Of a stretch of 64,000 bases of DNA, positions 5,483-43,794 are shown in pieces. How positions within the stretch are numbered: position 1 is the first letter of the stretch; every line of letters starts with the position of its first letter. The DNA is taken from assembly GCA_032161105.1 (NCBI GenBank), contig JAVHTD010000012.1, one strand, 5' to 3'. This DNA is from Candidatus Thermosaccharophagus tengchongensis. Its GTDB lineage: Bacteria; Armatimonadota; Fervidibacteria; Fervidibacterales; Thermosaccharophagaceae. Both the position numbers and the translations under genes were made by a program. The notes below the pieces were generated by a model. It was not told where the DNA came from. It ran no database searches and saw only the letters and a program-made list of their open reading frames with translations.

Positions 5483-6022
5483 ATGGTGAGGCAGCTGGTA
5501 GTAGCAGCGTTAGCGGCAGTGATGGCGCTGCCATTTGTTGGGATTGCCCAACAGCCACAAAAGAAGCAACCACCAGCAAAGCCCGAAGTTAAGGAGGCAA
5601 AACCTGCGCCACCTGCACCTGCGAAGAAGCCACCAGCGGCTAAGCCTGCACCACCTGTGCCTGCGAAGAAGCCGCCAGTGGCAAAGCCTGCACCACCTGT
5701 GCCTGCGAAGAAGCCGCCAGTGGCAAAGCCTGCACCACCTGCACCTGCGAAGAAGCCACCAGTGGCAAAGCCTGCGCCATCTAAGAAGCCGCCAGCGGCA
5801 AAGCCTGCGCCGTCTAAGAAGCCACCAGCGGCAAAGCCTGCACCGTCTAAGAAGCCGCCAGTGGCAAAGCCTGCGCCAACTAAGAAGCCACCAGCGGCAA
5901 AGCCTGCGCCGTCTAAGAAGCCGCCAGTGGCAAAGCCTGCGCCAACTAAGAAGCCACCAGCGGCAAAGCCTGCGCCAACTAAGAAGCCTGAATCAGAAAA
6001 GGCAGCGCCTAAGAAGCCGTAA
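5483..6022 (+). CDS. Exported Lys/Pro/Ala tandem-repeat protein (179 aa, predicted disordered and basic)
   Basis: AGGAGGTG RBS, Sec-type signal peptide MVRQLVVAALAAVMALPFVGIA, KKPP(A/V)AKPAP repeats, downstream hairpin. Confidence 0.8.
   Translation: MVRQLVVAALAAVMALPFVGIAQQPQKKQPPAKPEVKEAKPAPPAPAKKPPAAKPAPPVPAKKPPVAKPAPPVPAKKPPVAKPAPPAPAKKPPVAKPAPSKKPPAAKPAPSKKPPAAKPAPSKKPPVAKPAPTKKPPAAKPAPSKKPPVAKPAPTKKPPAAKPAPTKKPESEKAAPKKP
5624..5980 (+). repeat. Coding tandem repeat: three 42-bp units then seven 33-bp units
   Basis: KKPP(A/V)AKPAPP(V/A)PA x3 then KKPP(A/V)AKPAP(S/T) x7. Confidence 0.9.
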
Positions 6023-12380: not shown

Positions 12381-15300
12381 ATGAGGGCTTCAATCCCAAC
12401 TTCTGCCACAATTTTGGCGTTTTTGTGCTCGCTAAGCTGTGGGCAGTTGGAAGTTAGTTGGGACTTTACGCCGACAGGCGCGCTCAGCAGTGCCCACATT
12501 TCCGGGGCAATTCTCGCACAGAATTTGAGTGCAGTTATCATCAAGCCCGGTTGGCAAGGCAGTTACGCTGACCAACTTAATCCATCAACTGTCAAGGCAA
12601 CCCAACAGCGAAACGGGGATTTGATTTGGAAGGGCTCGCTTCACGGCAACGGCGTTTCGGTTGTTTTCATTCAAAGGGCAACGGTTAAAGGCAATGAACT
12701 TTCGCTGTCATACGAGTTCCGCTCGGAAACCGAGTTTAACTTGGAAACCCTGATGCTTCGCTGCCTTTTGCCGACGGAAGGAAACGCCGGCAAAGCAAAA
12801 TGGATTGCCGTTGATGAATTGTCAATGGAGGTTTTGAGCGGGACTTTCCCCGAAAAGTTGCCCGAACGCTACCATTTGCTGACAAGGGGCAATTTGTCTT
12901 GGCTCATGTGGGTTCTGCCGTCAGGTCATGCTCTGCTTTTTGACTTTCGGGAAGGCAACCTTGTCGGCGTCAATTTGCAAGATGACCGTCGCTTTGGCAT
13001 CAACGCTTTTGAGTTGCAACTTCATTTGCTTGGTGGCAAATGGCGTGTCAGCGAGAAAGTGACTTCAAAATTGCGGTTGCAAGTTTTGACCGAAAGCGAG
13101 GCAATTAGGTGGGAGAGGCAAATGCAAGAAGCGATTCAGCGCCAACGAACCATCGTGCTTCAAAAGCATGCGCCGTTAAAGTTGAACAGTGTAAAGCCGA
13201 GCACAAAATCGCTTCGCCGCTATGAAACCCTTGAGGTGAAGGTTGACCTTGACGCAACTTATGACAATCCATTTGACCCAGAGCAAATCAGCGTTGAGGC
13301 GGAGATTGTTTCGCCTTCCGGAAAGCAATTGCGAGTGCCCGGATTTTTCACGCAAGACTTTGAACGGGCGAAAAGGGACACGGGACAAGGTGCACGGGAA
13401 GTTTTGAGGAAAGTTGGTGAGCCTTATTTCGCCGTCAGGTTCACGCCAACGGAGGTCGGAATTTACCGATACCGCATTGTCGCAACTCAGTTTGTAGTGA
13501 GCCACGAAGCGAAAGCGGAGTGGCGTAATGGGACGAACCCAAAAGCAACGGCACTCCACTTCGTTTCGTGCCTTACTACGAACCAAGGGGAGGAAAAGCG
13601 AGTTTCATCCCGCATTATTGCAACTCAGTTTGTAGTGAGCCACGAAGCGAAAGCGGAGTGGCATAATGGGACGAACTCAAAAGCGACAGCACTCCACTTC
13701 GTTTCGTGCCTTACTACGAACCAAGGGGAGAAAAAGCAAGTTTCATCCGATTGGTTCACGCTGCGAGTTTTGCCCAACCCACAGGCGAAAGGTTTTGTTC
13801 GGCGAGGCAAGTTTTGGCACTTGCAATTTGATGACGGAACGCCTTTTGTGCCTGTCGGTTTGAATGTCTGCTGGTCGGGCAACAACTTGAGCGCTTATGA
13901 ACGATGGTTTTCGGCAATGCGTCAAAACGGTGCAAACTTCGCGCGAATTTGGCTCGTCCGTTGGAACATGGGTTTGGAGTGGATGCCCGGAGACGGAAGT
14001 GGGATGTATCTTGGCTTGGGCAAATATGCTCTTGACAATGCTTGGCGAATTGACGAACTGATTCGCATCGCTGAACGCAACGGCATTTACCTGATGCTTT
14101 GTTTGGGTTATCACGGCGAGTTGGCTGACAGGCAACTTTACTTCGGCGAACAGGCATGGGACAAAAACCCATACAACCGCAAAAACGGCGGTCCATGCGA
14201 TAAGCCTGCAGACTTTTGGACGAACCCCGAAGCGCGCCGATTTTACAAGCAACGACTTCGTTACATCATCGCCCGCTACGCCCACAGCCCAAATGTGCTC
14301 GCATTTGAGTTTTGGAACGAAGTTCACGCACCAGCGGATTGGGTTAAAGAGATGGCTCAATTTGCCCGCAGCATTGACATTTACGGTCACTTGCTAACGA
14401 CCACCTACGGCGATGATGCTGTTTGGCAGTTGCCCGAAATGGATTTTGCGCAGACACATTGGTATGGCGACGGAAGCCAACGGGATTGTGTGACAACAAT
14501 TGTCAATATCCATCGTTTCCACCTGCAGCGCTACCGCAAGCCCTTTTTGCTTGGCGAATTCGGAATTGACTGGCGAACGAGTGACTTGACATATGACCCG
14601 AAAGGCAATGCCCTGCATTGGCACAATGGCGTATGGGCATCATTAATGAGTGGCGGGATGGGAACCGCTTGCGTTTGGTATTGGGACAACTACATTGACC
14701 GATTGAACTTGTGGCATCACTTTCGCCCAATCGCAGATTTTGTCAAGTTAGTTGGCAAGGCTTGGCTTCAGAATTGGCGACCTTTGCAGCACACTGACCC
14801 GATACTTGAAACTTCGCCAGAACCACCTTTTGGCGATTTGTTCTTCACCCCAACTCTGGGTTGGCAGCGTCCGACGGGGGATACTTTCGTAGTGCACAGA
14901 AACGGCAAAGTTGAAAGCAACGGTGAAACGAGTGTTTTCCTGTTTTCGCCGAGCAAGCCAGACCTTTACCGCCCACCGAAATTCATCGTTGACTTCCCGC
15001 AAGATGGCGTGATGGCTTTGCATATCGGCACGGTTTCTTCAAATGCGGTGCTGATTGTCCGCATTGATGGCAGTGAAGTGTGGAGGCAAGTTTTGCCCGA
15101 AGGCGAAGAGCGAAAGGACGAACGAGGGCGAACTTACCGAGAAGGCAGTTACAAAAATCGGCGCTGGGATGAAACTTGGAAGAAGTGGGACTACATTTAT
15201 GAGCGCGAGTTCGTTGTGCCTATCCCAAAAGGCAAGCACACAATTGAACTTGACAATCAAGGCGCCGATTGGTGCACCATCCCGCATATTCGGTTTTCAC

Positions 15301-15611
15301 CCTACCGCGACCGCCGCTACGCTGAGGTTGACATTGTGGGCATCCAAACCGACACGATGGCGCTCATTTGGGTTCACAACCAACACAGCAATTTTCGTGT
15401 TGAAAAGGAACAAGGTGGGCTAAGGGAGGCGCTCAGGAACATCCAATTTGAGATTCTGGGGTTGAAGGATGGGAGTTGCCGAATTTTTCAGTGGGATACA
15501 TGGGAAGGCAAGATGCTACAAGAATGGAGGGCAATGAGCCAACAAGGGCGGTTGGGTTTAAAGCTGCCAGAATTGAGGAGAGACTTCGTTTTGATGATTC
15601 AAAGCGATTAA
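12381..15611 (+). CDS. Secreted DUF5060 + clan GH-A (GH5-like) glycoside hydrolase with in-frame REPIN insertions
   Basis: Signal peptide; YDNPFDP..RFTPTEVG; FEFWNEV acid/base and LGEFG nucleophile motifs. Confidence 0.8.
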   Translation: MRASIPTSATILAFLCSLSCGQLEVSWDFTPTGALSSAHISGAILAQNLSAVIIKPGWQGSYADQLNPSTVKATQQRNGDLIWKGSLHGNGVSVVFIQRATVKGNELSLSYEFRSETEFNLETLMLRCLLPTEGNAGKAKWIAVDELSMEVLSGTFPEKLPERYHLLTRGNLSWLMWVLPSGHALLFDFREGNLVGVNLQDDRRFGINAFELQLHLLGGKWRVSEKVTSKLRLQVLTESEAIRWERQMQEAIQRQRTIVLQKHAPLKLNSVKPSTKSLRRYETLEVKVDLDATYDNPFDPEQISVEAEIVSPSGKQLRVPGFFTQDFERAKRDTGQGAREVLRKVGEPYFAVRFTPTEVGIYRYRIVATQFVVSHEAKAEWRNGTNPKATALHFVSCLTTNQGEEKRVSSRIIATQFVVSHEAKAEWHNGTNSKATALHFVSCLTTNQGEKKQVSSDWFTLRVLPNPQAKGFVRRGKFWHLQFDDGTPFVPVGLNVCWSGNNLSAYERWFSAMRQNGANFARIWLVRWNMGLEWMPGDGSGMYLGLGKYALDNAWRIDELIRIAERNGIYLMLCLGYHGELADRQLYFGEQAWDKNPYNRKNGGPCDKPADFWTNPEARRFYKQRLRYIIARYAHSPNVLAFEFWNEVHAPADWVKEMAQFARSIDIYGHLLTTTYGDDAVWQLPEMDFAQTHWYGDGSQRDCVTTIVNIHRFHLQRYRKPFLLGEFGIDWRTSDLTYDPKGNALHWHNGVWASLMSGGMGTACVWYWDNYIDRLNLWHHFRPIADFVKLVGKAWLQNWRPLQHTDPILETSPEPPFGDLFFTPTLGWQRPTGDTFVVHRNGKVESNGETSVFLFSPSKPDLYRPPKFIVDFPQDGVMALHIGTVSSNAVLIVRIDGSEVWRQVLPEGEERKDERGRTYREGSYKNRRWDETWKKWDYIYEREFVVPIPKGKHTIELDNQGADWCTIPHIRFSPYRDRRYAEVDIVGIQTDTMALIWVHNQHSNFRVEKEQGGLREALRNIQFEILGLKDGSCRIFQWDTWEGKMLQEWRAMSQQGRLGLKLPELRRDFVLMIQSD
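13473..13748 (+). repeat. 138-bp tandem duplication, each unit containing a 94-bp REPIN
   Basis: Units 13473-13610 and 13611-13748; elements 13490-13583 and 13628-13721 match the reverse complement of the arms at 24528-24617. Confidence 0.9.
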
Positions 15612-15657
15612 GGCGATGCATGGGCAGGCAAAGCCTGCCCGAAAACTATTGGATGGG

Positions 15658-15690
15658 GGTGAGTCGGATGAATGGCTCGCTCAAATGGGT
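15658..15690 (+). repeat. 33-bp direct repeat of the oxidoreductase start region (17091-17123)
   Basis: GGTGAGTCGGATGA(A/G)TGGCTCGCTCAAATGGGT, 32/33 identical. Confidence 0.85.
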
Positions 15691-15708
15691 AAGCGATTGA
15701 GGCGACTT

Positions 15709-16010
15709 GTAGGAGCGGCTTCAGCCGCAAACGAAATGGTCGTCGTGGCTAAAGCCCCTCTTGACAAGTCGGTCTTTTCGTGCTACCACAATGCAGGGGC
15801 GGCTTTAGCTGCGAAAAAATCCCATGTTGTAGGGGCAGATGAAATCTGCCCGTTTTTGGTGCATTTCATGCGCCCTGAAAATCTTCGTGGCTAAAGCCCC
15901 TCCTACAGACGATGACCCATTATGGTCGGATTGTAGAGGCGTGTGAAACACGCCCGCCTTTTCGGGCGCATTTCATGCGCCCCTACGGGTGGCTTAACAG
16001 CCATCCCTAC
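15709..16010. repeat. Cluster of GTAG-family REP/REPIN palindromes
   Basis: GTAG arms at 15709, 15829 and 15933; CTAC ends at 15906, 15986 and 16010; internal GC hairpins. Confidence 0.8.
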
Positions 16011-16106
16011 GCTCAAGGTGGTAAAGTTGCATCAAGAGAGTTGTGGATGCAATTGGTTTGTCAGTGGAAATGGAGATGAAATTCACCAAAAAGGAGGCAA
16101 GGAAGG

Positions 16107-16988
16107 ATGAAGAAACTGGTGATAAAGGAGACTTCCCGTGGTAAGATACATCCCGGCATCGTTGCTGAAACCCTTACCATCAGTCCGGATAGCAAAAGGT
16201 TCGCTTATGTGGCATTTCGTGGTGGAAAGCAGTTTGTAGTGTTGGACGGAGTCAAAGGGAAGGAATATGACGGAATTGGTGCAGGCAGTCTTGTTTTCAG
16301 TCCAGATAGCAAAAGGTTCGCATATGTGGCAAGGCGTGGTGGAAAGGTATTTATGGTGTTTAAAGTGTTTAAGGTGTTTGTAGTCTTGGACGGAGAAGAA
16401 GGGAAGGAATATGACGGAATTGTTGAAGGCAGTCTTGTTTTCAGTCCAGATAGCAAAAGGTTCGCATATGGGGCAGGGCGTGGTGGAAAGTGGTTTGTAG
16501 TCTTGGACGGAAAAGAAGGGAAGGAATATGACGGAATTGTTGAAGGCACTCTTGTTTTCAGTCCAGATAGCAAAAGGTTCGCATATGGGGCAGGGCGTGG
16601 TGGAAAGCAGTTTGTAGTCTTGGACGGAAAAGAAGGGAAGGAATATGACGGAATTGGTGCAGGCAGTCTTGTTTTCAGTCCAGATAGCAAAAGGTTCGCA
16701 TATGTGGCAAGGCGTGGTGGAAAGCGGTTTGTAGTCTTGGACGGAGAAGAAGGGAAGGAATATGACGGAATTGGTGCAGGCAGTCTTGTTTTCAGTCCAG
16801 ATAGCAAAAGGCTCGCTTATGTGGCATTTCGTGGTGGAAAGCGGTTTGTAGTCTTGGACGGAGAAGAAGGGAAGGAATATGACGGTTTCCTGCGTGGTAG
16901 CAAATTGGTCTTTGATAGCCCAAGAGAACTTCACGCATTGGCTTTTCGTGGCGACGAAATTTTCCTTGTGACGGTGGAAATTCAATAG
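16107..16988 (+). CDS. Highly repetitive beta-propeller (PD40/WD40-like, 39-aa repeats)
   Basis: SPDSKR units begin at 16182, 16299, 16443, 16560, 16677 and 16794; AAGGAGG RBS; no signal peptide. Confidence 0.8.
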   Translation: MKKLVIKETSRGKIHPGIVAETLTISPDSKRFAYVAFRGGKQFVVLDGVKGKEYDGIGAGSLVFSPDSKRFAYVARRGGKVFMVFKVFKVFVVLDGEEGKEYDGIVEGSLVFSPDSKRFAYGAGRGGKWFVVLDGKEGKEYDGIVEGTLVFSPDSKRFAYGAGRGGKQFVVLDGKEGKEYDGIGAGSLVFSPDSKRFAYVARRGGKRFVVLDGEEGKEYDGIGAGSLVFSPDSKRLAYVAFRGGKRFVVLDGEEGKEYDGFLRGSKLVFDSPRELHALAFRGDEIFLVTVEIQ

Positions 16989-17012
16989 GGGTTTTTGCCT
17001 TGCAATGCTGCG

Positions 17013-17042
17013 TTGAGTAACCTGTGGCTATGGTGCTACAAT
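17013..17042 (+). promoter_or_regulatory. Putative sigma70 promoter
   Basis: TTGAGT-N18-TACAAT with TG extension. Confidence 0.45.
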
Positions 17043-17100
17043 GAAGGCAAGGGATAGGTGATGACTGAAGAGGTGCATCTTAATTGAGGAGGTGAGTCGG

Positions 17101-18570
17101 ATGAGTGGCTCGCTCAAATGGGTTAAGGATGTGCCAGTTAGGGAGAAGGTGGATGTTTTGGTTGTCGGTGGTGGTCCTGCAGGGGTGGCTGCGGCAATTG
17201 CTTCGGCAAGAAATGGCATGAATACACTGCTCATTGAGGGTCAATTTGCACTTGGCGGATTGGTAACCCTTGGCTATGTGTGCTATTTGGCTGGTTATCC
17301 TGAGGGTATCGGGAATGAGTTGCTTGGGAGATTAGCAGAAGTAGGTGCCGTTAGCCCGAGGCGAATTGCGGACCCGGAAAAAACGAAGCATGTCCTTGAG
17401 GAAATGCTCATAGAATCTGGCGCTCGCGTCCTATACGGCACAATCGCGATTGATAGCATAGTTGAGGATGGGGCTATAAAGGGCGTAATTGCCCACAACA
17501 AATCCGGGACACAGGCTATTTTAGCGGAAAGAGTCATAGATTGCTCAGGGGACGGTGATGTGGCAGCGTATGCTGGAGCACCGTATGAAGTGGGTTGGGA
17601 TGAAGCAGGTGGCTATAATCAAGCTGTTTCGTTGGATTTCATCCTTGCCAATGTTGACTGGCAAAGGTTCCAGAGCTCCGTCAAGCGCTGGTATAACTAC
17701 TTGCAGGAAATTGCCTATAAGGCTGTGGAAGAGGGCGTTTTATCAAAGCTTGTAGAGACTGGCTACCTTGGACCTTTTCCGGGCAGGCAGCCCGAAGGGT
17801 GCGAAATCTATGTTTGCACAGCGCATAGCCGAAATTGCCGCACTGTGGATGCCGATGACTTGACGAGGATTGCGATAGAGCAGAGGAGGCAAATCCGTGA
17901 AATGGTGGAATTTTACAGGAAATATGTGCCCGGCTTTGAAGGCAGTTGGCTCGTATACAGCGCGCCGCTGCTTGGAATTCGTGACTCAAGGCGCATCATC
18001 GGGGAATATGTTTTGACTGGTGAAGATATTGTGCTTGCGAGGAAATTTGATGATGCAATTGCCCGTGACACTCACGGATTTGACATCCACAATCCGACAG
18101 ATTTGCCGCATATTAAGCACATTCACCTGAAGGAGCCGAAAGAGCCAGCTGTATGCTTTCCGAGTGAGGACAAGCCCGGAATGTATGATGCTTATCTAAA
18201 GCCGGGCGAATACTACGAAATTCCATACCGATGCTTAGTTCCATTGAATGTGGAGAATTTGCTTGTGGCTGGGAGGTGTCTTTCTGCGACATTTGAGGCT
18301 CAATCTGGGGCAAGATTGATTTTCACATGTATGACTATGGGGCAAGCTGCTGGGACAGCTGCAGCGCTTTCAATCCAGAAAAATGTGACGCCAAGGCAGC
18401 TTGATGCCAAAGTTTTGCGGGCAAGGTTAATTGAGCAAGGCGTGCGTCTGGATGTTGAGCCACCAGTTTATGTCAAGGGTGGACCGCACCCGCCAATACC
18501 AAAGGATGCCAAGTTTGCAGTGGAAAGAGCCGGAGGAATCGGGGATGAAATCGTGATTGTGAAGGAGTAG
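17101..18570 (+). CDS. FAD-dependent oxidoreductase (PF12831-like)
   Basis: DVLVVGGGPAG, IDCSGDGD and YEIPYRCL..NLLVAGRC motifs; GAGGAGGTG RBS. Confidence 0.9.
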   Translation: MSGSLKWVKDVPVREKVDVLVVGGGPAGVAAAIASARNGMNTLLIEGQFALGGLVTLGYVCYLAGYPEGIGNELLGRLAEVGAVSPRRIADPEKTKHVLEEMLIESGARVLYGTIAIDSIVEDGAIKGVIAHNKSGTQAILAERVIDCSGDGDVAAYAGAPYEVGWDEAGGYNQAVSLDFILANVDWQRFQSSVKRWYNYLQEIAYKAVEEGVLSKLVETGYLGPFPGRQPEGCEIYVCTAHSRNCRTVDADDLTRIAIEQRRQIREMVEFYRKYVPGFEGSWLVYSAPLLGIRDSRRIIGEYVLTGEDIVLARKFDDAIARDTHGFDIHNPTDLPHIKHIHLKEPKEPAVCFPSEDKPGMYDAYLKPGEYYEIPYRCLVPLNVENLLVAGRCLSATFEAQSGARLIFTCMTMGQAAGTAAALSIQKNVTPRQLDAKVLRARLIEQGVRLDVEPPVYVKGGPHPPIPKDAKFAVERAGGIGDEIVIVKE

Positions 18571-18579
18571 GGATTTCAT

Positions 18580-19869
18580 GTGCCGAATGGGCAAATGGGA
18601 AACATATGGCACGAGCCGACATTGAGGGCGCTGCTTGGAGCCACACTTTGGTGGCTGCCATTCAACATTTTTTGGGGAATTTTGCTCATTCATGGGCTGC
18701 AAATGCGGATTGAGGGGCTGGTTGAGCAAGCGGTTGCAGGGAGAGCGCTTGGGTGGTTGAACTTTGTTGGCGCATTCGTCTCAACTGTGACGCAGCTTGT
18801 AGTCGGTCCGATAAGCGATGCGTTGTGGTGGACTGGTTTCCGAAGGCGATTGCCACTGGTGATTGGGACTTCGTTAGCCTTCTTTCCGGTCCATTTCTTT
18901 CTCCACACCAAAAGGTTTGATGCATTGGTGCTAAACTTTGCACTCTTGCAGTTTCTGATAAACTGCGCTGCCGCATCTTTTCAAGCATTGATCCCCGATA
19001 CCTTACCCGATGGCAAGCATGGAATTGCATCGGCATATATGGCGATGTGGGCATTGATTGGCAACCTTGCTGGGATGGCTATTTGCATTGCTGTTCTTGG
19101 CAGGGTCCCAAAGCCAGCTGTGGAGATAGCATTATCAGCCACAGTTTTTGGCTCGTGGCTGTTTTTGTTCATTGTGGCAATTTTGACGGCAGTTTTGATC
19201 AAGGAGCCACCGCCGTCAGCTGGCTCAATGATGGCAAAATCACCTTGGCAAATCCTCTCAGCGATGAACTTCAAGGATGTGGTTGAGCATTGCAGCTTTA
19301 TGTGGCTATTTGCTTCCCGCTTCGCAATTCAAATGGGGGTTTATGGCTCAATACCCTTCCTCAGGTGGTATGTTCGTGACACGCTCCGAAGCGATAAAGT
19401 TGTCGTTGATACTGCTACAGTCGGCATTTGTGCCATAATCGGGAGCGCCATCTCAATCTTGCCAGCCGGAAAACTCGCCGATAGATACAGCAAGAGGCTG
19501 ATCATATTCGCTGCATGCTCAGTGGCGATGCTTGGCGGGGTAATCTTCATTTGCGCAAATTCAAAGTTTACAGCGATGGCTGCGGCAATCATCCTCGGGA
19601 TGGGCTTTGGTGCATTTAGTGCTGTTGATTGGGCACTCGCATGCAACTTGGTGCCAAAGGAATGGGCTGCAAAGTTTATGGCTGTGTTTCACATTGCTTT
19701 CACTTTGCCGCAGGCTGTGTCCAGCTTCATTGGCGGCTTTGTTGGGGATCTTGGCAATCAGTTCTTTGGCAGGGGAATTGGCTGGAGGCTCGTCTTTGCA
19801 ATGTGCGTTGTCTACTTCTTTGTCGGGACATGGATGATACGAAATGTCACGGAGAGAAGAGTAGGTTAG
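18580..19869 (+). CDS. MFS transporter
   Basis: About 12 TM segments; GPISD..RRR and GKLADRYSKR motif A; start uncertain (GTG 18580 or ATG 18595). Confidence 0.85.
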   Translation: MPNGQMGNIWHEPTLRALLGATLWWLPFNIFWGILLIHGLQMRIEGLVEQAVAGRALGWLNFVGAFVSTVTQLVVGPISDALWWTGFRRRLPLVIGTSLAFFPVHFFLHTKRFDALVLNFALLQFLINCAAASFQALIPDTLPDGKHGIASAYMAMWALIGNLAGMAICIAVLGRVPKPAVEIALSATVFGSWLFLFIVAILTAVLIKEPPPSAGSMMAKSPWQILSAMNFKDVVEHCSFMWLFASRFAIQMGVYGSIPFLRWYVRDTLRSDKVVVDTATVGICAIIGSAISILPAGKLADRYSKRLIIFAACSVAMLGGVIFICANSKFTAMAAAIILGMGFGAFSAVDWALACNLVPKEWAAKFMAVFHIAFTLPQAVSSFIGGFVGDLGNQFFGRGIGWRLVFAMCVVYFFVGTWMIRNVTERRVG

Positions 19870-19933
19870 CGCCACAGGCATAACTGTCCCGAGGCATAAT
19901 AGCCCAAAGGCTTCAAGGCGCTTTCAGTTGCAA

Positions 19934-19972
19934 TTGCCTTTTCGTTCTCAAAAGCGCTACAATCGTTTTGAG
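19934..19972 (+). promoter_or_regulatory. Putative promoter with overlapping inverted repeat
   Basis: TTGCCT-N18-TACAAT; CTCAAAA-N12-TTTTGAG straddles the -10. Confidence 0.35.
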
Positions 19973-20061
19973 CACTCAGATGCATCGGTGAAGTGAAGCA
20001 TTTTCGCCATAGTGGCACGCCGAAGTTGTCTCTCAAAACGCCTGCAGAGGAGGGGATGCAC

Positions 20062-21312
20062 ATGAGGCAGACGAGAAGGCAATTCCTGAGCGATGCGGCT
20101 GCATTCGCTTCTTTGACGATACTCAGCAAATCCGTCTATGGCGCAAATGAAAAGATCGGTGTCGGCATTATCGGTTGTGGTGGTATGGGTGGCGGTCACA
20201 TTGGCACGGTGAGGAGGCTAAAAGAAAAGGGTGAGGCAGTTGAGCTTGTTGCCGTTTGCGATGTATGGCGCAAGCGCCTTGATGGTGTGGCGAAGGCGAC
20301 TGGCGCAACGCCATACATGGACTATCGTAAGCTGCTTGAGGACAAGGCAGTGGATGCGGTTTGCATTGCGACCCCGGATCACTGGCATGCCAAGATAGCC
20401 ATTGATGCAATGGAGGCTGGTAAGGATGTTTACTGCGAGAAGCCAATGACATACTGGAAAAGATTTGATGAGCCAAAGCGCATCGTTGAGACGCTGCAGA
20501 AGACAAAGCGAGTCCTTCAAGTTGGAACTCAAGGCATGTCCGACAGCATTTGGGAGCAGGTTGCTGAAGCGATAAGCGCCGGAGAGATTGGAACACTCAT
20601 TCATGCACAAGCCGCTGATATGCGCACCGGGCATTGGAGTGTCCTTTGCGGATGTGAGAAGGACATTGACCCGGATGCAAAGCCCGGTGAAAATCTTGAT
20701 TGGGACATGTGGCTTGGTTGGCAATTTGGGCTTGCTCCAAAGCGCCCATGGGAGCCAAGCAGGTTCTTTGCATTTCGCATCTTCTGGGACTACTCGGGCG
20801 GTTTGGCTACCGATTGGTTTCCGCACATACTTACGCCACTTGTTAGGGCAATGGGATTGAAGTTCCCAAAGCGCGTAACAGCTTCCGGTGGCTTGTATGT
20901 GCCTGAGCACAAGGGCAGGTGGGAGGTGCCCGACATATTTCAAATGCTCGTTGAATACCCAAATGGTCCTTCCGTCTTGCTCGTTGCGTGCTTGGGTAAC
21001 AACTTTGGCATGCCGATGCTCATTCGTGGTAGCAAGGCGACGCTCACCTTTGAAGGTCCGGGGGCTGTGATACATCCGCAGCGCGAAGTCGTAGGTGACC
21101 AGCCAAGGAAGGAGATTGCGCGCACTCGTGGTGCATCCCTTGAGGAGCATTGGCGTGATTTCTTGAATTGCATACGAACGCGCCAGCAGCCAAGGAGCAA
21201 TGCCTTGTTGGGTTACTATGTCATGACCGCAATTCACATGGGCATACGCTCATACCTTGAGGGGCGCACAATGGAGTTTGACGAGGCAACAGAGACAGTC
21301 AAGCCGGTGTGA
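20062..21312 (+). CDS. Tat-exported Gfo/Idh/MocA oxidoreductase
   Basis: TRRQFL signal; GIIGCGGMG, IATPDHWH and YCEKP motifs. Confidence 0.9.
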   Translation: MRQTRRQFLSDAAAFASLTILSKSVYGANEKIGVGIIGCGGMGGGHIGTVRRLKEKGEAVELVAVCDVWRKRLDGVAKATGATPYMDYRKLLEDKAVDAVCIATPDHWHAKIAIDAMEAGKDVYCEKPMTYWKRFDEPKRIVETLQKTKRVLQVGTQGMSDSIWEQVAEAISAGEIGTLIHAQAADMRTGHWSVLCGCEKDIDPDAKPGENLDWDMWLGWQFGLAPKRPWEPSRFFAFRIFWDYSGGLATDWFPHILTPLVRAMGLKFPKRVTASGGLYVPEHKGRWEVPDIFQMLVEYPNGPSVLLVACLGNNFGMPMLIRGSKATLTFEGPGAVIHPQREVVGDQPRKEIARTRGASLEEHWRDFLNCIRTRQQPRSNALLGYYVMTAIHMGIRSYLEGRTMEFDEATETVKPV

Positions 21313-21355
21313 AAAGCCTTGGCGCTCGCTTGAATGCCATGCGGAGGTGCGATGG

Positions 21356-22270
21356 GTGGCGAGGGCATGGATTGATGGCTCATTAGTGCGCATTGAAACA
21401 GAGCGCTATTGTGCAGCCGTTCAAACGAAGGGCTATGTCACCGGGGTTATGGGTGGCAGTTTCATTGACAAGGCGACAGGTGCAAGGGATGTTGGGTTTG
21501 GTTTGGTCATCGTTGATTTCCTACTTGAGCCCGGCGCTGACACTGAAGAGACGCCAAAGGAGTTGCGCTACCACTGGGGTGATGCAATTCATGGCAATAT
21601 ACCAAAGCGCTATGTTGAGCTGCCGCAGATATGCACGCAAGCAAAAGAGCTCCCGTTTGAGATTGTTGAGGGTGACGGCTTTGTTGCAGTGCATCAATGG
21701 TTCACTTGGAGCGTTGCGCGCCCACCGTATAAGCCGGGCTCAAGATGGGAGCAGTGGCTTGTCTTCCCGGAAGGCGTTCGTTGGTTTGTCTCGTATGATG
21801 TCGTAAGGAGCGCAAACGATGTTGATTGTCTCCTCTTGCGCATGGACATGCCATGCCACATAAGGCACAATCGCGGAGATACATTCAGGCAAATCTACCT
21901 CAGCTATCACGGCTTCATACCGGCTGAGGTATTCTTTGAGGACTTCCCACCGCATGAACGATACCTCTATCGGCGTGAGGATGGGAAGGTGCCAAGGCGT
22001 TTCATTCGCGGCGCGCAGTTGAGAGACGACATTTGGCTGCTTGGGATGTGCTTAAAGCCATCAATGGTTTATGAGGCATGGTGCCATCAGCGTGGCTATG
22101 TGTGCATGATTCAAGAAATTGGCGGCTTGAAGGTGAAGGCAGGCGATGCCTTTGGTGCGGTGCACATCGTCGGCTTCTTTGAGGATGTCGCCGAAGCCGA
22201 AAAAACTTTTGATGAGCATGAAGGGAAAGAGGCGCTCATAATCAAGGGACGAAGTTGGGAACTTGTGTAG
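21356..22270 (+). CDS. Hypothetical protein
   Basis: Long ORF, GGAGG RBS before GTG 21356, lies in an apparent operon. Confidence 0.65.
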   Translation: MARAWIDGSLVRIETERYCAAVQTKGYVTGVMGGSFIDKATGARDVGFGLVIVDFLLEPGADTEETPKELRYHWGDAIHGNIPKRYVELPQICTQAKELPFEIVEGDGFVAVHQWFTWSVARPPYKPGSRWEQWLVFPEGVRWFVSYDVVRSANDVDCLLLRMDMPCHIRHNRGDTFRQIYLSYHGFIPAEVFFEDFPPHERYLYRREDGKVPRRFIRGAQLRDDIWLLGMCLKPSMVYEAWCHQRGYVCMIQEIGGLKVKAGDAFGAVHIVGFFEDVAEAEKTFDEHEGKEALIIKGRSWELV

Positions 22271-22283
22271 AGTGGTGATTAGC

Positions 22284-22868
22284 ATGGCAGGACAGCTCCC
22301 CGAATACATCATCAGCGTGATGGCTCGTGATAGACCGGGGATAATCGCCGGCATCGGGAAGGCAATCTATGAGCTTGGTGGCAACATAGAGGAATTGAGC
22401 CAAACAGTCGTGAGAGGTTACTTCACCGTCATTGTGTGTGTCACCTTCCCAGAGCCGCAGCCGCCGCTTGAAGAAGTTGTGAGGGCGATTGAGTCAACAG
22501 GTATTCCAGGTGAGTTGCATGTCACGGCAGCATTGCGCCACCCAAGTGAGCCATTAAGCGCGACACCGGAAAACTATGACCGCTTCATACTCACGGTGTA
22601 TGGTAACGACCAGCCCGGCATAATTTATCGCATGGCTTCATATCTCGCATCAAGGGGCATCAATATCACTGACCTCTATGGAAGGACCAGTGATGGCGGT
22701 TTTATGATGGTGCTTGAACTCTCAGTCCCGCCGGAACTTGACCCAAGGGAGCTAAAACATGACCTTGAAGAGCTTGGACGCTCAATTGGGCTGTCGGCGC
22801 ATTTTCAGCACGAGAACTTGTTTAAGGTGACGCACGACTTGCGCTCGCTGGCAGCGCCAACGCTTTAA
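22284..22868 (+). CDS. Tandem ACT-domain protein (GcvR-like)
   Basis: Two ACT units: DRPGIIA and DQPGIIY. Confidence 0.85.
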   Translation: MAGQLPEYIISVMARDRPGIIAGIGKAIYELGGNIEELSQTVVRGYFTVIVCVTFPEPQPPLEEVVRAIESTGIPGELHVTAALRHPSEPLSATPENYDRFILTVYGNDQPGIIYRMASYLASRGINITDLYGRTSDGGFMMVLELSVPPELDPRELKHDLEELGRSIGLSAHFQHENLFKVTHDLRSLAAPTL

Positions 22869-22888
22869 TTGCATCTTCTGCATCTTCT

Positions 22889-22951
22889 TTCGGAGGGCGC
22901 TTCTCCCGAAGCGCCGTTCTCTTCGGCGGCTCCGGAGAGCCGCCCTCTGAA
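22889..22951. repeat. Double-hairpin palindrome between convergent genes (terminator or REPIN-like)
   Basis: TTCGGAGGGCG...CGCCCTCTGAA termini with inner hairpins GGCGCTTC/GAAGCGCC and GGCGGCTC/GAGCCGCC. Confidence 0.55.
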
Positions 22952-22984
22952 TGATTACAGCTAAAGCCACCAACAGGCTCATGG

Positions 22985-24358
22985 TCAGTTCCTCAGGCTT
23001 GTTAATGGTGCTGGTATTCGCCCACCCATTCTGACGAATTCGCTGCTGCAGCCGACATTTCGTATTTCCATGACAACGGTCTCGCCAAACAGCCCGCCAA
23101 ATTTGACTTTCTCACCGGCGCGCTTTCCCGGGACCGGAATAACCCTCACAGCGGTTGTCTTGTGATTGAACACACCAATGGCAAGCTCATCCGCTATCAA
23201 TGAGGCGATTGTCTCAGTATCAACATCCCCCGGTATCGCAATCATATCAAGCCCGACAGAACATACGCTCGTCATCGCTTCAAGTTTTTCAATCGTCAAA
23301 TAGCCCATCTCTGCAGCGTGCGACAATCCGCTGTCCTCCGCAACTGGTATGAATGCCCCAGATAAACCTCCGACCGCTGATGAGGCAAATAAACCGCCCT
23401 TCTTAACGGCATCATTTAGCAGCGCTAATGCTGCTGTTGAACCAGGCGCACCAACATGCTTAATCCCCATAGCCTGAAGTATCTCGCCAACGCTGTCCCC
23501 AACTCTCGGTGTTGGTGCAAGCGACAAGTCAACTATGCCGAACTTGGCGCCAATTGCCTGCGCAATCTCCCTGCCGATTAGCTCGCCGATGCGAGTCAGC
23601 CTGAATGCCGTCGTCTTTATCACCTCGGCGACATCGTTCAATGTCAACTTCGGCTTCATCTCCTTTGCGCGCTCAATTGCTCCTTTAACCACGCCCGGAC
23701 CGCTAACGCCCACATTGACAGCGCAATCTGCTTCCCCAATTCCGTTGAATGCGCCAGCCATGAATGGGTTGTCTTCAGGAGCATTCGCAAACACAACGAA
23801 CTTCGCACACCCAAAACCGTTAAGGTGAGCAGTGCGTTGCGCAACTTGAAGCAGCATCTCGCTGATGAGCAAAACTGCATCCATGTTTATCCCGGTGTTC
23901 GTAGAGGCTGCATTTACAGATGCGCATAAGCGCTCAGTTGTGCTTAGGGCTTCTGGGAGTGAGCGTATGAGCGTTTCATCATCTTCGGTCATGCCTTTGT
24001 GAACAAGAGCCGTGTAGCCGCCAATCAAATCAACGCCAAGTTCACGCGCTGTTTCATCAAGCGTCTTTGCCACCTTGATGAAGCCGTCAAGACCATGCCC
24101 GGAGGCTATGATGCTTATTGGAGTGACAGCTATTCTCCGATGCACAATTGGCACACCATACTTGACCTCAAGCGCTTCACATGCCGAGTGCAGCTTACTT
24201 GCGCGCTCAAGCAACCTTGACCGTATGCGCTTGCACAAGATATTGATGTCGTCGGAGTAGCAGCCAAGCAAGCTTATTCCAACTGTGACAGTGCGCACAT
24301 CAAAATTCTCCTCATGTATCATCCGTATCGTGCTGAGTATGTCTTCAGTGCGGACCAT
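22985..24358 (-). CDS. PFL-like family protein (DUF711/UPF0210)
   Basis: DVRTVTVGISL, EDNPFMAGAF, VGVSGPGVV and EAMTSVCSVGLDM motifs. Confidence 0.9.
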   Translation of the reverse strand: MVRTEDILSTIRMIHEENFDVRTVTVGISLLGCYSDDINILCKRIRSRLLERASKLHSACEALEVKYGVPIVHRRIAVTPISIIASGHGLDGFIKVAKTLDETARELGVDLIGGYTALVHKGMTEDDETLIRSLPEALSTTERLCASVNAASTNTGINMDAVLLISEMLLQVAQRTAHLNGFGCAKFVVFANAPEDNPFMAGAFNGIGEADCAVNVGVSGPGVVKGAIERAKEMKPKLTLNDVAEVIKTTAFRLTRIGELIGREIAQAIGAKFGIVDLSLAPTPRVGDSVGEILQAMGIKHVGAPGSTAALALLNDAVKKGGLFASSAVGGLSGAFIPVAEDSGLSHAAEMGYLTIEKLEAMTSVCSVGLDMIAIPGDVDTETIASLIADELAIGVFNHKTTAVRVIPVPGKRAGEKVKFGGLFGETVVMEIRNVGCSSEFVRMGGRIPAPLTSLRN

Positions 24359-24484
24359 GCAATCACCCCCTTGATTGCATTATGGATCGCGCTACATAAC
24401 GCCATCAGTGAGAGTAGCTTCAATTTAGCGGCGTGCGCCGAAGTGGCAAAGGAGGTGTGAATGGGGTGATGAACGCTACCAGAA

Positions 24485-24740
24485 GTTCGTAGTAAGACAC
24501 CAAACGAAGTGTAGCGCCACCAACGAGGTTCGTAGTAAGGCACGAAACGAAGTGAAGTGCCGTCAACGATGCCATGATGAACGCCACTTCGCTAACGCTT
24601 CGTGGCTTACTACGAACAATGCCATGATGGACGCCACTTCGCTTACGCTTCGTGGCTTACTACGAACGATGTCATGATGAACGCCACTCCGCTATTGCTT
24701 CATGGCTTACTACGAACAATGCCCGTGGCTTACTACGAAC
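24485..24740. repeat. REPIN array: two left arms, three full right arms at 50-bp period, one partial arm
   Basis: GTTCGTAGTAAG.. at 24485 and 24528; ..TGGCTTACTACGAAC ending 24617, 24667, 24717 and 24740. Confidence 0.9.
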
Positions 24741-24991
24741 AATGCATTGCTCAATTGATGTCGTTTGACGAGATTGCAATGTGAGACTTTACAATCAAAT
24801 TGCGCCGTGCCAAAGTTGGGTTGTGGGAGTTGGGTTTTCTGAATGGGGTCAATCTCACACCGAAGGAGGTGATGCAGTGAAAGTTCACAGGGGCAGTTTC
24901 CGAGTTCACGACTGAGGAACGATGTGAGGCGGACTATCGTCCGCCCTACAATCTCCACACGATGTTTTTAAACTCAAAGGAGGGGTGCGAA

Positions 24992-25738
24992 ATGAAGCGA
25001 GCAGCTGGAATGCTTAGGTTGAGGTGGAGAGGTTTTACGCTGATAGAGCTGCTGGTGGTGATAGCGATAATCGCCATCTTGGCAGCGATACTGTTCCCCG
25101 TGTTTGCGAGGGCGAGGGAAAAAGCGAGAAGCGCATCATGCCAAAGCAACTTGAAGCAAATCGGGCTGGGCATTTTGCAGTATTGTCAGGACTACGATGA
25201 GTTCTTTCCGGTTGTGCGCGGATATGACCCGACTATTGGCAAGCTCTGGACATGGAAGTCGGAGATAATGCCCTATGTGAAGAATGACAAAATCTTCACA
25301 TGTCCATCAAGCCCCTACATTAACAATCCCTATTGCGGTGATTGCATAACTTGCGCCACCCAAAGTATTGAATCGCCATACCTTGACAGGTCTTATGCAT
25401 GGGCAACTGCGAGTGGCGATAACCCTGCAACCGACAACTTCTCATACGGATGGGGAGCTCGTCCACCGCACCAGTCAATGATAAAGTCGCCGGCGAATGT
25501 TTTGATGATCGTAGAGACACATACAACCTGCATAGACCACTGTGCATGGTGTAGCGGCAATGCGCGCTGTGACCACAATGGCTACGGCAACTTCCTCTTC
25601 GCTGATGGGCATGTGAAGATCATGAAATGGACACATACCTACCAGCCAGTATGCATGTGGGAGTTCAGCAGGGCTGCTGCGGGAACAATTTGTAGGGATC
25701 CCAATTGGGTGAACAATGTGCGTGCTGAATGCCGTTGA
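24992..25738 (+). CDS. Prepilin-type N-terminal cleavage/methylation protein, DUF1559 with H-X9-DG motif
   Basis: [40 protein letters not shown] and [13 protein letters not shown]; Cys-rich. Confidence 0.9.
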
Positions 25739-43400: not shown

Positions 43401-43495
43401 GGAGGGATGCGCCGAGTGGCTAAGGCGGCGGCCTGCTAAGCCGTAGGGGGGTTGTGAAGCCTCCCTCCCGGGTTCGAATCCCGGTCCCTCCGCCA
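43401..43495 (+). tRNA. tRNA-Ser(GCT)
   Basis: GGAGGGA/TCCCTCC acceptor stem, CT-GCT-AA loop, long variable arm, GGTTCGAATCC, encoded CCA. Confidence 0.93.
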
Positions 43496-43501
43496 TTTGG
43501 C

Positions 43502-43579
43502 GCGCCCGTAGCTCAGCTGGAATAGAGCACGGGACTACGGATCCCGGGGTCGGGGGTTCGAATCCCTCCGGGCGCGCCA
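43502..43579 (+). tRNA. tRNA-Arg(ACG)
   Basis: GCGCCCG/CGGGCGC acceptor stem, CGGGA-CTACGGA-TCCCG, encoded CCA. Confidence 0.95.
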
Positions 43580-43602
43580 ATATGCTTTAGCTGTTGTGGT
43601 AT

Positions 43603-43676
43603 GCGCCCGTAGCTCAGTCGGACAGAGCGCTGGCCTCCGGAGCCAGAGGTCGCGCGTTCGAATCGCGCCGGGCGCA
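43603..43676 (+). tRNA. tRNA-Arg(CCG)
   Basis: CTGGC-CTCCGGA-GCCAG anticodon arm; CCA not encoded. Confidence 0.95.
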
Positions 43677-43721
43677 TGTGATTGCGTAAAATTTGGGCGC
43701 GCTCATTTTTGGAGTAACGAT

Positions 43722-43794
43722 GCCCCTGTAGCTCAAGAGGATAGAGTGGCGGCCTCCTAAGCCGCAGATCCCGGTTCGAGTCCGGGCAGGGGCA
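43722..43794 (+). tRNA. tRNA-Arg(CCT)
   Basis: GCGGC-CTCCTAA-GCCGC anticodon arm; CCA not encoded. Confidence 0.93.

What the first reader, a model, noticed from the sequence alone, without database searches (positions are those of the whole stretch)
13473..13748. REPIN element inserted in frame, then duplicated, inside a glycoside hydrolase gene
Seen: the CDS contains two 138-bp units, each holding a 94-bp palindromic element (GTTTGTAGTGAGCCACGAAGC...GTTTCGTGCCTTACTACGAAC). Its reverse complement matches both arms of the intergenic element at 24528-24617, with a different spacer (24 vs 20 bp). It is read as FVVSHEAKAEW..LHFVSCLTTN (31 aa). Removing it and the duplicate leaves YRIVATQQGEEKRVSSDWF, so about 77 aa were added near the end of the DUF5060 domain with the frame intact. 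Known: REPINs are normally extragenic, and Rickettsia palindromic elements are the precedent for in-frame coding insertions. Inference: a mobile palindrome is creating new protein sequence in this lineage.
Basis: partly seen in the sequence, partly recalled or inferred. Interest (0 to 1): 0.78.

Follow-up and report, generated by a model that had tools for sequence, protein, structure and literature searches.

The report
Palindromic repeat inserted inside enzyme gene
A small mobile palindromic DNA repeat sits in frame inside a sugar-cleaving enzyme gene of a hot-spring bacterium and was then doubled, adding about 77 apparently floppy amino acids to a surface loop; this kind of event is already known from other bacteria.

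Summary
Window 13473-13748 holds two 138-bp tandem units. Each unit carries a 94-bp head-to-head REP dimer, in frame, in a 1076-aa DUF5060+GH5 gene (12381-15611).

The element belongs to a GTAG-tagged REP family: 68 arms at 21 loci in this 2.74-Mb genome, and up to 428 arms in relatives.

Orthologue alignment shows a true insertion. Three of 11 orthologues carry one copy at the same site. Eight have only a short loop, as does a solved homologue (9gmj). Only this genome has the duplication, which copied the element plus 17+27 bp of host flanks. Public run contigs could not bridge it.

AlphaFold2 places residues 375-448 as a low-confidence loop between two confident strands.

Six more in-frame insertions lie in four other hydrolase-like genes. 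Each is absent from orthologues.

No cognate RAYT was found, so "REPIN" holds by structure only.

In-frame GTAG REP dimers inside genes, including glycoside hydrolases, were catalogued in 2013 (PMC3733652). This is therefore a new member of a known kind. The same 21-nt REP core also occurs in Anaerolineae MAGs, which is unexplained.

The parts
12381..15611 (+). Host gene: 1076-aa putative secreted glycoside hydrolase (N-terminal beta-rich region, DUF5060 domain, GH5-like catalytic barrel, C-terminal beta domains)
   Evidence: ORF. Pfam DUF5060 aa 278-367 (E 1.1e-10) and Cellulase/GH5 aa 485-730 (E 6.1e-9). AF2 model has mean pLDDT 84.7 and pTM 0.76. Solved homologue 9gmj, E 1.3e-86. Alignment A1 of 26 sequences has invariant E643/N646/E647/E726 downstream of the insert.
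13473..13610 (+). Tandem unit 1 (138 bp = 46 codons): 17 bp host flank + 94-bp REP dimer + 27 bp host flank
   Evidence: Its left flank and element are identical to the single unit of the G004 orthologue. Its right flank has 2 derived changes.
13611..13748 (+). Tandem unit 2 (138 bp), found only in this genome
   Evidence: It differs from unit 1 at 8 internal positions, all transitions, plus one further difference at the unit boundary in the register, which starts 4 nt upstream of these coordinates. Both breakpoints share the microhomology CCG (..ATAC|CGCATTG.. and ..CATC|CGATTGG..), read.
13490..13583 (+). REP dimer copy 1: A arm (GTTTGTAGTGAGCCAC...GTGGCG), 23-nt spacer, inverted B arm (...GTGCCTTACTACGAAC)
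   Evidence: As RNA it folds into a long hairpin.
13628..13721 (+). REP dimer copy 2
24485..24717 (.).
   Evidence: No open frame spans the cluster.

Best explanation
A non-autonomous palindromic repeat of the GTAG-tagged REP class inserted into the loop between the last two beta-strands of the DUF5060 domain of a GH5-type glycosidase. It is a head-to-head dimer of two REP hairpins, that is, REPIN-like.

The copy survived because it was stop-free and kept the frame. It is read through as about 31 residues of a surface loop.

The insertion predates the split from a same-genus relative (about 82% DNA identity, syntenic). The element-bearing allele is also found, 94-95% identical, in two genomes of another genus, probably by gene transfer.

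Later, in this lineage only, a 138-bp tandem duplication copied the element together with 17 and 27 bp of host sequence. It most likely arose by slippage or unequal recombination at a CCG microhomology, not by a second transposition. The loop thereby grew to about 77 extra residues, and the new copy has since drifted.

What is shown: the repeat family, the insertion, the reading frame and the loop position. What is inferred: the mobilising enzyme, translation of the insert, its neutrality and the duplication mechanism.
For: Family. There are 68 arms at 21 loci and 25 dimers of 79-94 bp with sharp ends. Of the 68 arms, 56 fit one hairpin template, with the outer stem paired in 55 of 56 and the inner pairs in 56 of 56. 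Two compensated stem variants occur, GCCAC/GTGGC and GGCAC/GTGCC. All arms carry a GTAG tag.

Relatives. The core is present in 11 of 41 genomes, from 1 to 428 arms each, and the reversed-pattern control gives 0 everywhere.

Insertion. Between the two anchors the gene has 375 bp here, 237/237/264 bp in the three single-copy orthologues and 141-195 bp in the eight empty ones. PDB 9gmj has 8 residues where this protein has 86.

Loop. AF2 gives pLDDT below 50 for residues 375-448, flanked by strands 360-371 and 451-455 in 10-residue blocks whose mean pLDDT is 96-98.

Gene integrity. The catalytic-domain invariants lie downstream in the same frame.

Duplication. The unit includes host flanks. The units differ at 8 internal positions, all transitions. 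These amount to 5 amino-acid changes and 3 silent base changes, which fits drift.

Generality. Six further in-frame insertions are absent from orthologues: a GH42-like protein (present in G000 and G003, absent in 6 orthologues); three sites in one 745+ aa protein (present in G000 and G004, absent in 9); a BNR/sortilin-like protein and an NlpC/P60 protein (each absent in the G003 orthologue). Different genes read the element in different frames, so the repeat is a DNA element and not a protein module.

Survivorship. Intergenic dimers have on average only 1.7 of 6 frames open.
Against: - No cognate transposase was found. PF01797 and NF047646 give nothing in this 97.4%-complete genome.
- The RAYT genes of G003, G004, G006 and G015 are flanked by other REP families. 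No Y1 gene in the five REP-rich genomes (four Anaerolineae MAGs and one Armatimonadota MAG whose single hit lies at the same place as G003's) has this core nearby.
- No target-site duplication or conserved target could be read.
- The duplication is seen only in this assembly. Logan contigs of four runs stop inside the REP arms and none bridges it.
- There is no evidence at the RNA or protein level that the insert is translated.
- Sharing with G004 and G006 probably reflects gene transfer, so only G003 is independent evidence for age.
- Low pLDDT does not prove disorder.
Confidence: 0.8

Rival explanations
1. The element is a MITE derived from an ordinary insertion sequence that is not RAYT-dependent. 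Its arms would be terminal inverted repeats of an undetected or lost transposon.
For: No RAYT is linked to this REP in any genome examined. The arms are inverted and the ends are sharp.
Against: Each arm is itself a conserved hairpin with compensatory stem variants and a GTAG tag, which is the REP signature and not a plain TIR. Arms also occur singly and in same-orientation arrays. No longer element with these ends enclosing a transposase was seen in six G004 loci with spaced REP pairs. No target-site duplication was evident.
Confidence: 0.12
2. The second 138-bp unit is an assembly artefact, for example two strain variants chained in tandem. The real gene would have one element.
For: The genome is a 44-contig metagenome-style assembly. 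All three other element-bearing orthologues have one unit. No public contig bridges the repeat.
Against: The junction ...TTTCATCC|CGCATTATTGC... does not exist in a single-copy allele, so a graph assembler needs reads that contain it (inference). The units differ at 8 positions and the frame is kept at 46 codons. The depth bins over the junction are covered in two runs, but ambiguously.
Confidence: 0.1
3. The insert has been co-opted. Either the peptide loop (for example a flexible or binding loop of a secreted glycosidase) or the two strong mRNA hairpins (translation pausing or mRNA stability) would be under selection.
For: The frame has been kept across about 82% DNA-identity divergence. The left arm is unchanged in G003. 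The RNA fold is -117.6 kcal/mol with z -8.4. All five host proteins appear from Pfam hits and N-termini to be hydrolases or carbohydrate-active, probably exported, proteins; export was not tested.
Against: Between the two units there are 5 replacement and 3 silent changes. The spacer and right arm of the G003 copy have diverged about as much as the gene. Eight orthologues and the solved homologue do without the insert. The insert has low model confidence.
Confidence: 0.1
4. The repeated segment is a protein-level repeat module shared by several proteins, not a DNA element.
For: Similar peptides ending in ..LTTN recur in several proteins.
Against: The same DNA is read in different frames in different genes (FVVSHEAKAEW vs VCSKARSEAEC vs VRSESQSSSG). 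Most copies are intergenic with no open frame.
Confidence: 0.01

Closest known systems
GTAG-tagged REPs inside ORFs (Di Nocera et al. 2013, PMC3733652; passages and Additional file 3 seen)
   Same: Short hairpin repeats with a GTAG tag, mostly as head-to-head dimers or clusters and mostly intergenic. A minority lie in frame inside genes, where dimers encode 20-30 aa. Several insertions can occur in one gene. Clusters encoding 43-82 aa are reported. Hosts in Opitutus terrae include glycoside hydrolases of families 2, 8, 20, 28, 31 and 43.
   Different: The phylum differs (an Armatimonadota-like hot-spring lineage) and so does the REP sequence: none of my four strings occurred in the four supplementary files held. 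The family consensus figure is not held and one supplement (a .doc) was unreadable, so identity with one of the paper's 24 GTAG families is not excluded. Here the long insert arose by tandem duplication of element plus host flanks, and each event is dated by orthologue comparison.
REPIN/RAYT systems (Bertels and Rainey 2011, PMC3116915; search listing and abstract only)
   Same: Two inverted REPs separated by a short spacer, tens to hundreds of copies, patchy distribution among relatives, clusters.
   Different: No RAYT flanked by this REP was found. The two arms are consistently two different compensated variants. The 21-nt core is shared across phyla, whereas REPIN populations are described as lineage-specific and vertically inherited (abstracts seen).
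Rickettsia palindromic elements (as summarised in the review PMC10969869; passages seen)
   Same: Palindromic mobile elements frequently inserted in frame into unrelated genes, adding peptide segments that appear compatible with the fold.
   Different: RPEs are about 150 bp, unrelated in sequence and found in obligate intracellular alphaproteobacteria. Here the element is 79-94 bp and of the REP-dimer type.
Small dispersed repeats and MITEs of cyanobacteria
   Same: Very small palindromic mobile repeats that are tolerated inside coding regions. I recall similar ...ACTACGAAC-type termini.
   Different: Not checked here. This is a lead only.

Membership tests
REPIN (RAYT-mobilised REP doublet) | [quoted passage not shown] | tested here: met
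   25 head-to-head doublets of 79-94 bp in the genome, including both copies in the gene
REPIN (RAYT-mobilised REP doublet) | Each REP is an imperfect palindrome able to form its own hairpin | tested here: met
   56 of 68 arms fit a template of 5-bp stem, 3x3 purine loop, 2 bp and a 3-4-nt loop. The outer stem pairs in 55 of 56 and the inner in 56 of 56. Two compensated stem variants occur.
REPIN (RAYT-mobilised REP doublet) | A RAYT (Y1 HUH transposase) gene flanked by REPs of the same family in the genome | tested here: not met
   There is no PF01797 or NF047646 match in this genome at 97.4% completeness. The RAYTs of G003, G004, G006 and G015 are flanked by other REP families. None of the 10 Y1 hits in the five REP-rich genomes has the core nearby. 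One 573-bp G016 contig has the core abutting a truncated RAYT of another family. All genomes are fragmented assemblies that break at REPs, so absence is not proven.
REPIN (RAYT-mobilised REP doublet) | Multi-copy, predominantly extragenic population | tested here: met
   66 arms here and 428 in G003. None of the 29 cluster rows sampled in G003 lay deep inside a long ORF. Here 6 of 21 loci are intragenic.
GTAG-tagged REP superfamily (PMC3733652) | Short stem-loop with an unpaired GTAG motif at one end | tested here: met
   The arm consensus is GTTCGTAGTAAG followed by the hairpin. The definition was taken from passages of the paper.
GTAG-tagged REP superfamily (PMC3733652) | Assignment to one of the 24 published GTAG families by consensus sequence | not testable with these tools
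   The consensus sequences are in a figure that is not held. My four strings were absent from the four supplementary files held.
MITE (IS-derived) | Target-site duplication and a parent IS with the same terminal inverted repeats | tested here: inconclusive
   No duplication can be read at the filled versus empty sites because the loop is too diverged. The flanks of the 25 dimers share no clear motif beyond a frequent C/T-T after the 3' end. No transposase lies between spaced REP pairs in six G004 loci.
Rickettsia palindromic elements | Sequence membership in the RPE families of Rickettsia | not tested
   No RPE sequence was compared. The organism, length and structure differ. The resemblance is functional only.

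The most novel reading that the evidence does not exclude
The GTTCGTAGTAAG-type REP is a cross-phylum mobile element. It would move between hot-spring Armatimonadota, Anaerolineae and other phyla, propagated by a mobilising enzyme that is not the locally detectable RAYTs. In the Fervidibacter-like lineage it would act as a recurrent source of new loop sequence in hydrolases that are probably exported. These loops can then grow by tandem duplication and travel with the host gene by horizontal transfer.
Probability: 0.12. Interest if true: 0.65.

Novelty: new member of a known kind. Interest (0 to 1): 0.4.

Why it matters
The locus is a clean case of a mobile palindrome adding protein sequence, dated by orthologue comparison. 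It records an empty site, a single insertion kept in frame through speciation (and probably through gene transfer), and then a tandem duplication that more than doubles the loop. All of this occurs in an enzyme class of biotechnological interest from a hot-spring lineage.

It extends in-frame REP insertions to what appears to be Armatimonadota. It also gives at least seven events in five genes with which to test how large unstructured loops are tolerated.

Two points go beyond the known pattern and could be followed up: the absence of a cognate RAYT, and the near-identical REP core in MAGs labelled as other phyla.

Tried and rejected
- Reads. The four best-suited public runs (three DNA, one metatranscriptome) are held only as Logan contigs. 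The flanking contigs end at 13523 and restart at 13693. No contig bridges the duplication, so it is neither confirmed nor refuted. The RNA run shows only a 282-nt contig over 13689-13967 with 5 differences, which does not show expression of this gene.
- RAYT hunt. I searched PF01797 in the own genome, in 40 relatives and in five further REP-rich genomes, and NF047646 in five genomes. I also ran tblastn of the G004 and G003 RAYTs against the own genome, which gave one weak hit, C3:107961-108107, E 0.004. No RAYT is linked to this REP.
- Parent-element search. No transposase lies between spaced REP pairs in G004.
- Rfam. The gathering search of the window gave only four tRNAs and nothing at the element.
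- Earlier notes of this scan gave nothing, by place or by sequence.
- Literature. No paper was found for PDB entries 9gmj, 9gpc or 9gpa. The top ten listed papers of the Fervidibacter-plus-repeat-terms search contain no occurrence of 'Fervidibacter'. The main text of the F. sacchari paper has no occurrence of palindrom, repetitive, transpos or mobile.
- Rejected reading. The two close elements in the C33 protein are not a duplication: the 39 residues between them are host sequence present in all orthologues, so they are separate insertions.
- Explained repeat. The repeat at window ~25026-25210 is the conserved N-terminus of prepilin-type proteins (a gene family), not a mobile element.
Full report
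1. THE OBSERVATION

Window 13469-13744 is a two-copy tandem repeat of 138 nt at 93% identity. TRF reports 13472-13748, period 138, 2.0 copies, no indels, score 498.

Each unit contains a 94-bp palindromic element, at 13490-13583 and 13628-13721. Its arms are GTTTGTAGTGAGCCACGAAGC... and ...GTTTCGTGCCTTACTACGAAC.

The 21-nt arm core occurs 7 times in the window at up to 3 mismatches, against 0.00 expected from 100 shuffles. The other five copies form an intergenic cluster at 24485-24717. The reverse complement of the dimer 24528-24617 matches the genic element at 31/36 bases (left arm) and 34/35 (right arm), with a different spacer.

The whole region lies in one open frame, 12381..15611 + (1076 aa). 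Pfam finds DUF5060 at aa 278-367 and GH5 Cellulase at aa 485-730.

2. THE ELEMENT

The window is contig C12 of a 2.74-Mb, 44-contig genome that is 97.4% complete.

Genome-wide the arm core has 68 matches (up to 4 mismatches) at 21 loci. Twenty-five pairs are head-to-head dimers of 79-94 bp with sharply defined ends, GTTCGTAG...CTACGAAC. Ten of the 25 are exactly 90 bp.

Every dimer joins an 'A' arm (GCCAC...GTGGC) to a 'B' arm (GGCAC...GTGCC). Of the 68 arms, 56 fit one hairpin template: a GTAG-containing leader, a 5-bp stem, a 3x3 purine internal loop (GAA/GRA), 2 bp and a 3-4-nt loop. The outer stem is paired in 55 of 56 and the inner pairs in 56 of 56.

The A/B differences are compensatory within each arm. 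What is conserved is therefore the small REP hairpin, not only the long palindrome.

This is the anatomy of GTAG-tagged REPs and of REP doublets (REPINs), as described in PMC3733652 (passages) and PMC3116915 (abstract).

As RNA, the 276-nt genic stretch folds into two long hairpins: -117.6 kcal/mol, z -8.4, with 0 of 200 shuffles folding as well.

3. IT IS AN INSERTION

A search of 40 relatives found orthologues of the gene. I aligned the 11 whose loci were returned.

- Three carry one copy of the element at exactly this site and in frame: G004 and G006 (another genus) and G003 (same genus).
- Eight have only a short, variable loop (G013, G007, G012, G017, G005, G018, G011, G008).

Between the conserved anchors FA[VI]RFTP and [ND]P[QKS]AKGFVR the gene has 375 bp here, 237/237/264 bp in the single-copy orthologues and 141-195 bp in the empty ones.

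The nearest solved structure, 9gmj ('DUF5060 domain-containing protein', E 1.3e-86), has 8 residues where this protein has 86.

An AlphaFold2 model built on a 26-sequence alignment has mean pLDDT 84.7 and pTM 0.76. It places residues 375-448 at pLDDT below 50, between strands 360-371 and 451-455, which lie in 10-residue blocks whose mean pLDDT is 96-98. The insert therefore sits in the hairpin loop between the last two strands of the DUF5060 domain.

The catalytic domain follows in the same frame with its invariant residues intact. The gene does not look broken.

4. THE DUPLICATION

Only this genome has two units. The duplicated unit is not the element alone: it comprises 17 bp of host sequence, the 94-bp element and 27 bp of host sequence. 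A second transposition is therefore excluded.

Both breakpoints share CCG (...ATAC|CGCATTG... and ...CATC|CGATTGG...). This fits slippage or unequal recombination at a microhomology, which is my inference.

The units differ at 8 internal positions, all transitions. With the G004 unit as reference, six changes are derived in unit 2 (left flank and element) and two in the right flank of unit 1. They amount to five amino-acid changes and three silent base changes, which is what drift would give.

Independent support was sought in public runs and not obtained. Seventeen runs from hot-spring and sediment metagenomes hold half or more of the stretch's words. The four runs I laid are Logan contigs that break inside the REP arms, so none bridges the repeat.

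The junction sequence cannot exist in a single-copy allele, so I rate an assembly artefact as unlikely (about 0.1). It remains unverified.

5. AGE AND TRANSFER

G003 is syntenic with window ~12429-25734 at 77-85% DNA identity and carries the element. The insertion is therefore older than that split.

G004 and G006 match only the gene itself, at 94-95% DNA identity. Their flanks are not syntenic and other genes match at 71-73%. The element-bearing allele was probably exchanged between genera, so these two genomes are not independent evidence for age.

6. NOT A ONE-OFF

Scanning all 21 REP loci for open frames gave five more intragenic loci. I tested each against orthologues.

(i) A 1053-aa GH42-like protein with CBM4_9 carries VCSKARSEAECR...WLTTN in G000 and G003. 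Six orthologues have AIAPDL or similar instead.

(ii) A 745+ aa protein cut by a contig end carries three separate insertions, in G000 and in its 97%-identical G004 orthologue. All three are absent from nine orthologues.

(iii) A BNR/sortilin-like protein has a 26-aa insert absent from the only orthologue found, in G003.

(iv) A LysM-SH3-NlpC/P60 protein has an insert in its linker that is absent from the G003 orthologue.

That makes seven insertion events in five genes. They are read in at least three different frames of the element, which rules out a protein-level module.

Intergenic dimers have on average only 1.7 of 6 frames free of stops, and 11 of 25 have a length divisible by three. The in-frame copies are therefore the survivors of selection against disruptive insertions.

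In G003, a sample of the perfect-core (youngest) arms gave 29 cluster rows (26 distinct places). None lay deep inside a long open frame. Intragenic copies are a minority of the family.

Several further REPs inside long open frames were seen in G004 loci, but I did not check them against orthologues.

7. WHAT MOVES IT

Not resolved.

- The own genome has no match to PF01797 or to NCBIfam NF047646. tblastn with relatives' RAYTs gave one weak hit.
- Bona fide RAYTs exist in G003, G004 and G015 (over cut-off), and a similar 207-aa protein exists in G006 (PF01797 E 1.9e-10). They are flanked by two other REP families (TGTAGGGGCGG... and GGGAGGGTGAGGCTCC...), not by this one.
- None of the 10 Y1 hits in the five REP-rich genomes (four Anaerolineae MAGs and one Armatimonadota MAG whose single hit lies at the same place as G003's) has the core in its locus.
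- One 573-bp contig of G016 shows this REP abutting, and apparently truncating, a RAYT of the other family.
- Many G003 arms sit at contig ends. A RAYT embedded in REPs could therefore simply be unassembled.

The element is REPIN-like by structure, but the defining RAYT link was tested and not met.

8. DISTRIBUTION

Among 41 related genomes the core (up to 2 mismatches) occurs in 11. Counts are 66 here, 428 in G003, 89 in G004, and 64, 34, 27, 23, 12, 7, 2 and 1 elsewhere. It is absent from the two other same-genus genomes. The reversed-pattern control gives 0 everywhere.

The titled records are:

- six Armatimonadota MAGs, including one named Candidatus Fervidibacter sinensis;
- thirteen Anaerolineae or Anaerolineales MAGs;
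- single records of Thermoflexia, Rhodothermus, Planctomycetia, Planctomycetota, Verrucomicrobia and Proteobacteria.

The Anaerolineae copies are true REP arrays with the same hairpin. By my own estimate about one chance hit is expected in such a scan, and the Proteobacteria hit looks like it.

A near-identical 21-nt REP core across phyla is unusual for REPs. I cannot exclude mis-binning.

9. COMPARISON WITH WHAT IS KNOWN

In-frame REPs are documented. [quoted passage not shown] It also reports that some ORFs are hit twice and that clusters encode 43-82 aa. Its Additional file 3 has 250 rows. Seventy mention O. terrae, and they include glycoside hydrolase families 2, 8, 20, 28, 31 and 43.

RPEs are the classical high-frequency case (review passages).

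The present case is therefore a new member of a known kind. Its particular points are:

- the orthologue-dated series from empty site to insertion to tandem duplication;
- the hot-spring Armatimonadota-like host;
- the concentration in hydrolase-like, probably exported proteins;
- the missing RAYT;
- the cross-phylum core.

The main text of the Fervidibacter sacchari paper contains none of the terms palindrom, repetitive, transpos or mobile. A library search for Fervidibacter with repeat terms listed no paper that contains 'Fervidibacter' among its top ten. The consensus figure of PMC3733652 and one of its supplements (a .doc) could not be read, so identity with a published GTAG family is open.

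10. VERDICT

The novelty is modest and the interest is 0.4.

Noticed in passing
window 12523-15601 vs G004:C11:61679-64631 and G006:C171:519-3570: The glycosidase gene is 94-95% identical in DNA to genes in two genomes of another genus, while neighbouring genes are not syntenic and match at only 71-73%. The same-genus G003 is syntenic at 77-85%. This looks like recent horizontal exchange of the element-bearing allele.
   Followed up: partly
window ~15920-15990, about 300 bp downstream of the gene's stop at 15611: A dimer of a second GTAG REP family (TTGTAGAGGCGTGTGAAACACGCCCGCC ... GGGCGCATTTCATGCGCCCCTAC). It resembles the REPs that flank the RAYT of G004, and copies occur in G004 and G006, including an array with 120-bp spacing in G006:C161.
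   Followed up: partly
window ~25026-25210: A stretch with dozens of 75-91% matches in all five compared genomes. It is the conserved N-terminus of prepilin-type ([17 protein letters not shown]...) proteins, a multi-copy gene family rather than a mobile repeat.
   Followed up: yes
L234 (G016:C301:1-573): A 573-bp contig on which the GTTCGTAGTAAG REP core abuts, and seems to replace, the C-terminal end of a RAYT gene of another REP family. It may be a REP inserted into a foreign RAYT, but the contig ends there.
   Followed up: partly
Orthologue loci L005-L012 and L046-L055, and window ~13380-13410: The loops where REPs inserted are, in element-free orthologues, variable low-complexity runs such as GTRDKGHGT, GQGTQDKGQG and ERGQGAGGKGQVGEKRRSGEWEKRGNGEAEKNGEAGKG, encoded by GGGACAAGGGAC-like DNA. 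These loops seem generally prone to expansion.
   Followed up: no
Loci L056-L135, e.g. L101, L089, L076, L085: The same 21-nt REP core and hairpin form arrays in 13 Anaerolineae/Anaerolineales MAGs with much higher G+C flanks, and occur singly in MAGs labelled Thermoflexia, Rhodothermus, Planctomycetota and Verrucomicrobia. Such cross-phylum sharing of a REP core is unusual.
   Followed up: partly
window 16244-16885: A 117-bp period tandem repeat (4.4 copies, 95% matches) in the region after the glycosidase gene, probably coding repeats. Not examined.
   Followed up: no
window 5596-5990: Tandem repeats of period 42 and 33 (GCAAAGCCTGCACCACC-like; 4.4 and 7.2 copies). Not examined.
   Followed up: no
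window 43401-43794: A cluster of four tRNA genes on the + strand.
   Followed up: no
G004 loci L226, L227, L229: Further REP arms of this family lie inside long open frames of G004 (883-aa, 738-aa and 534+-aa frames). These are candidates for more in-frame insertions and were not checked against orthologues.
   Followed up: no
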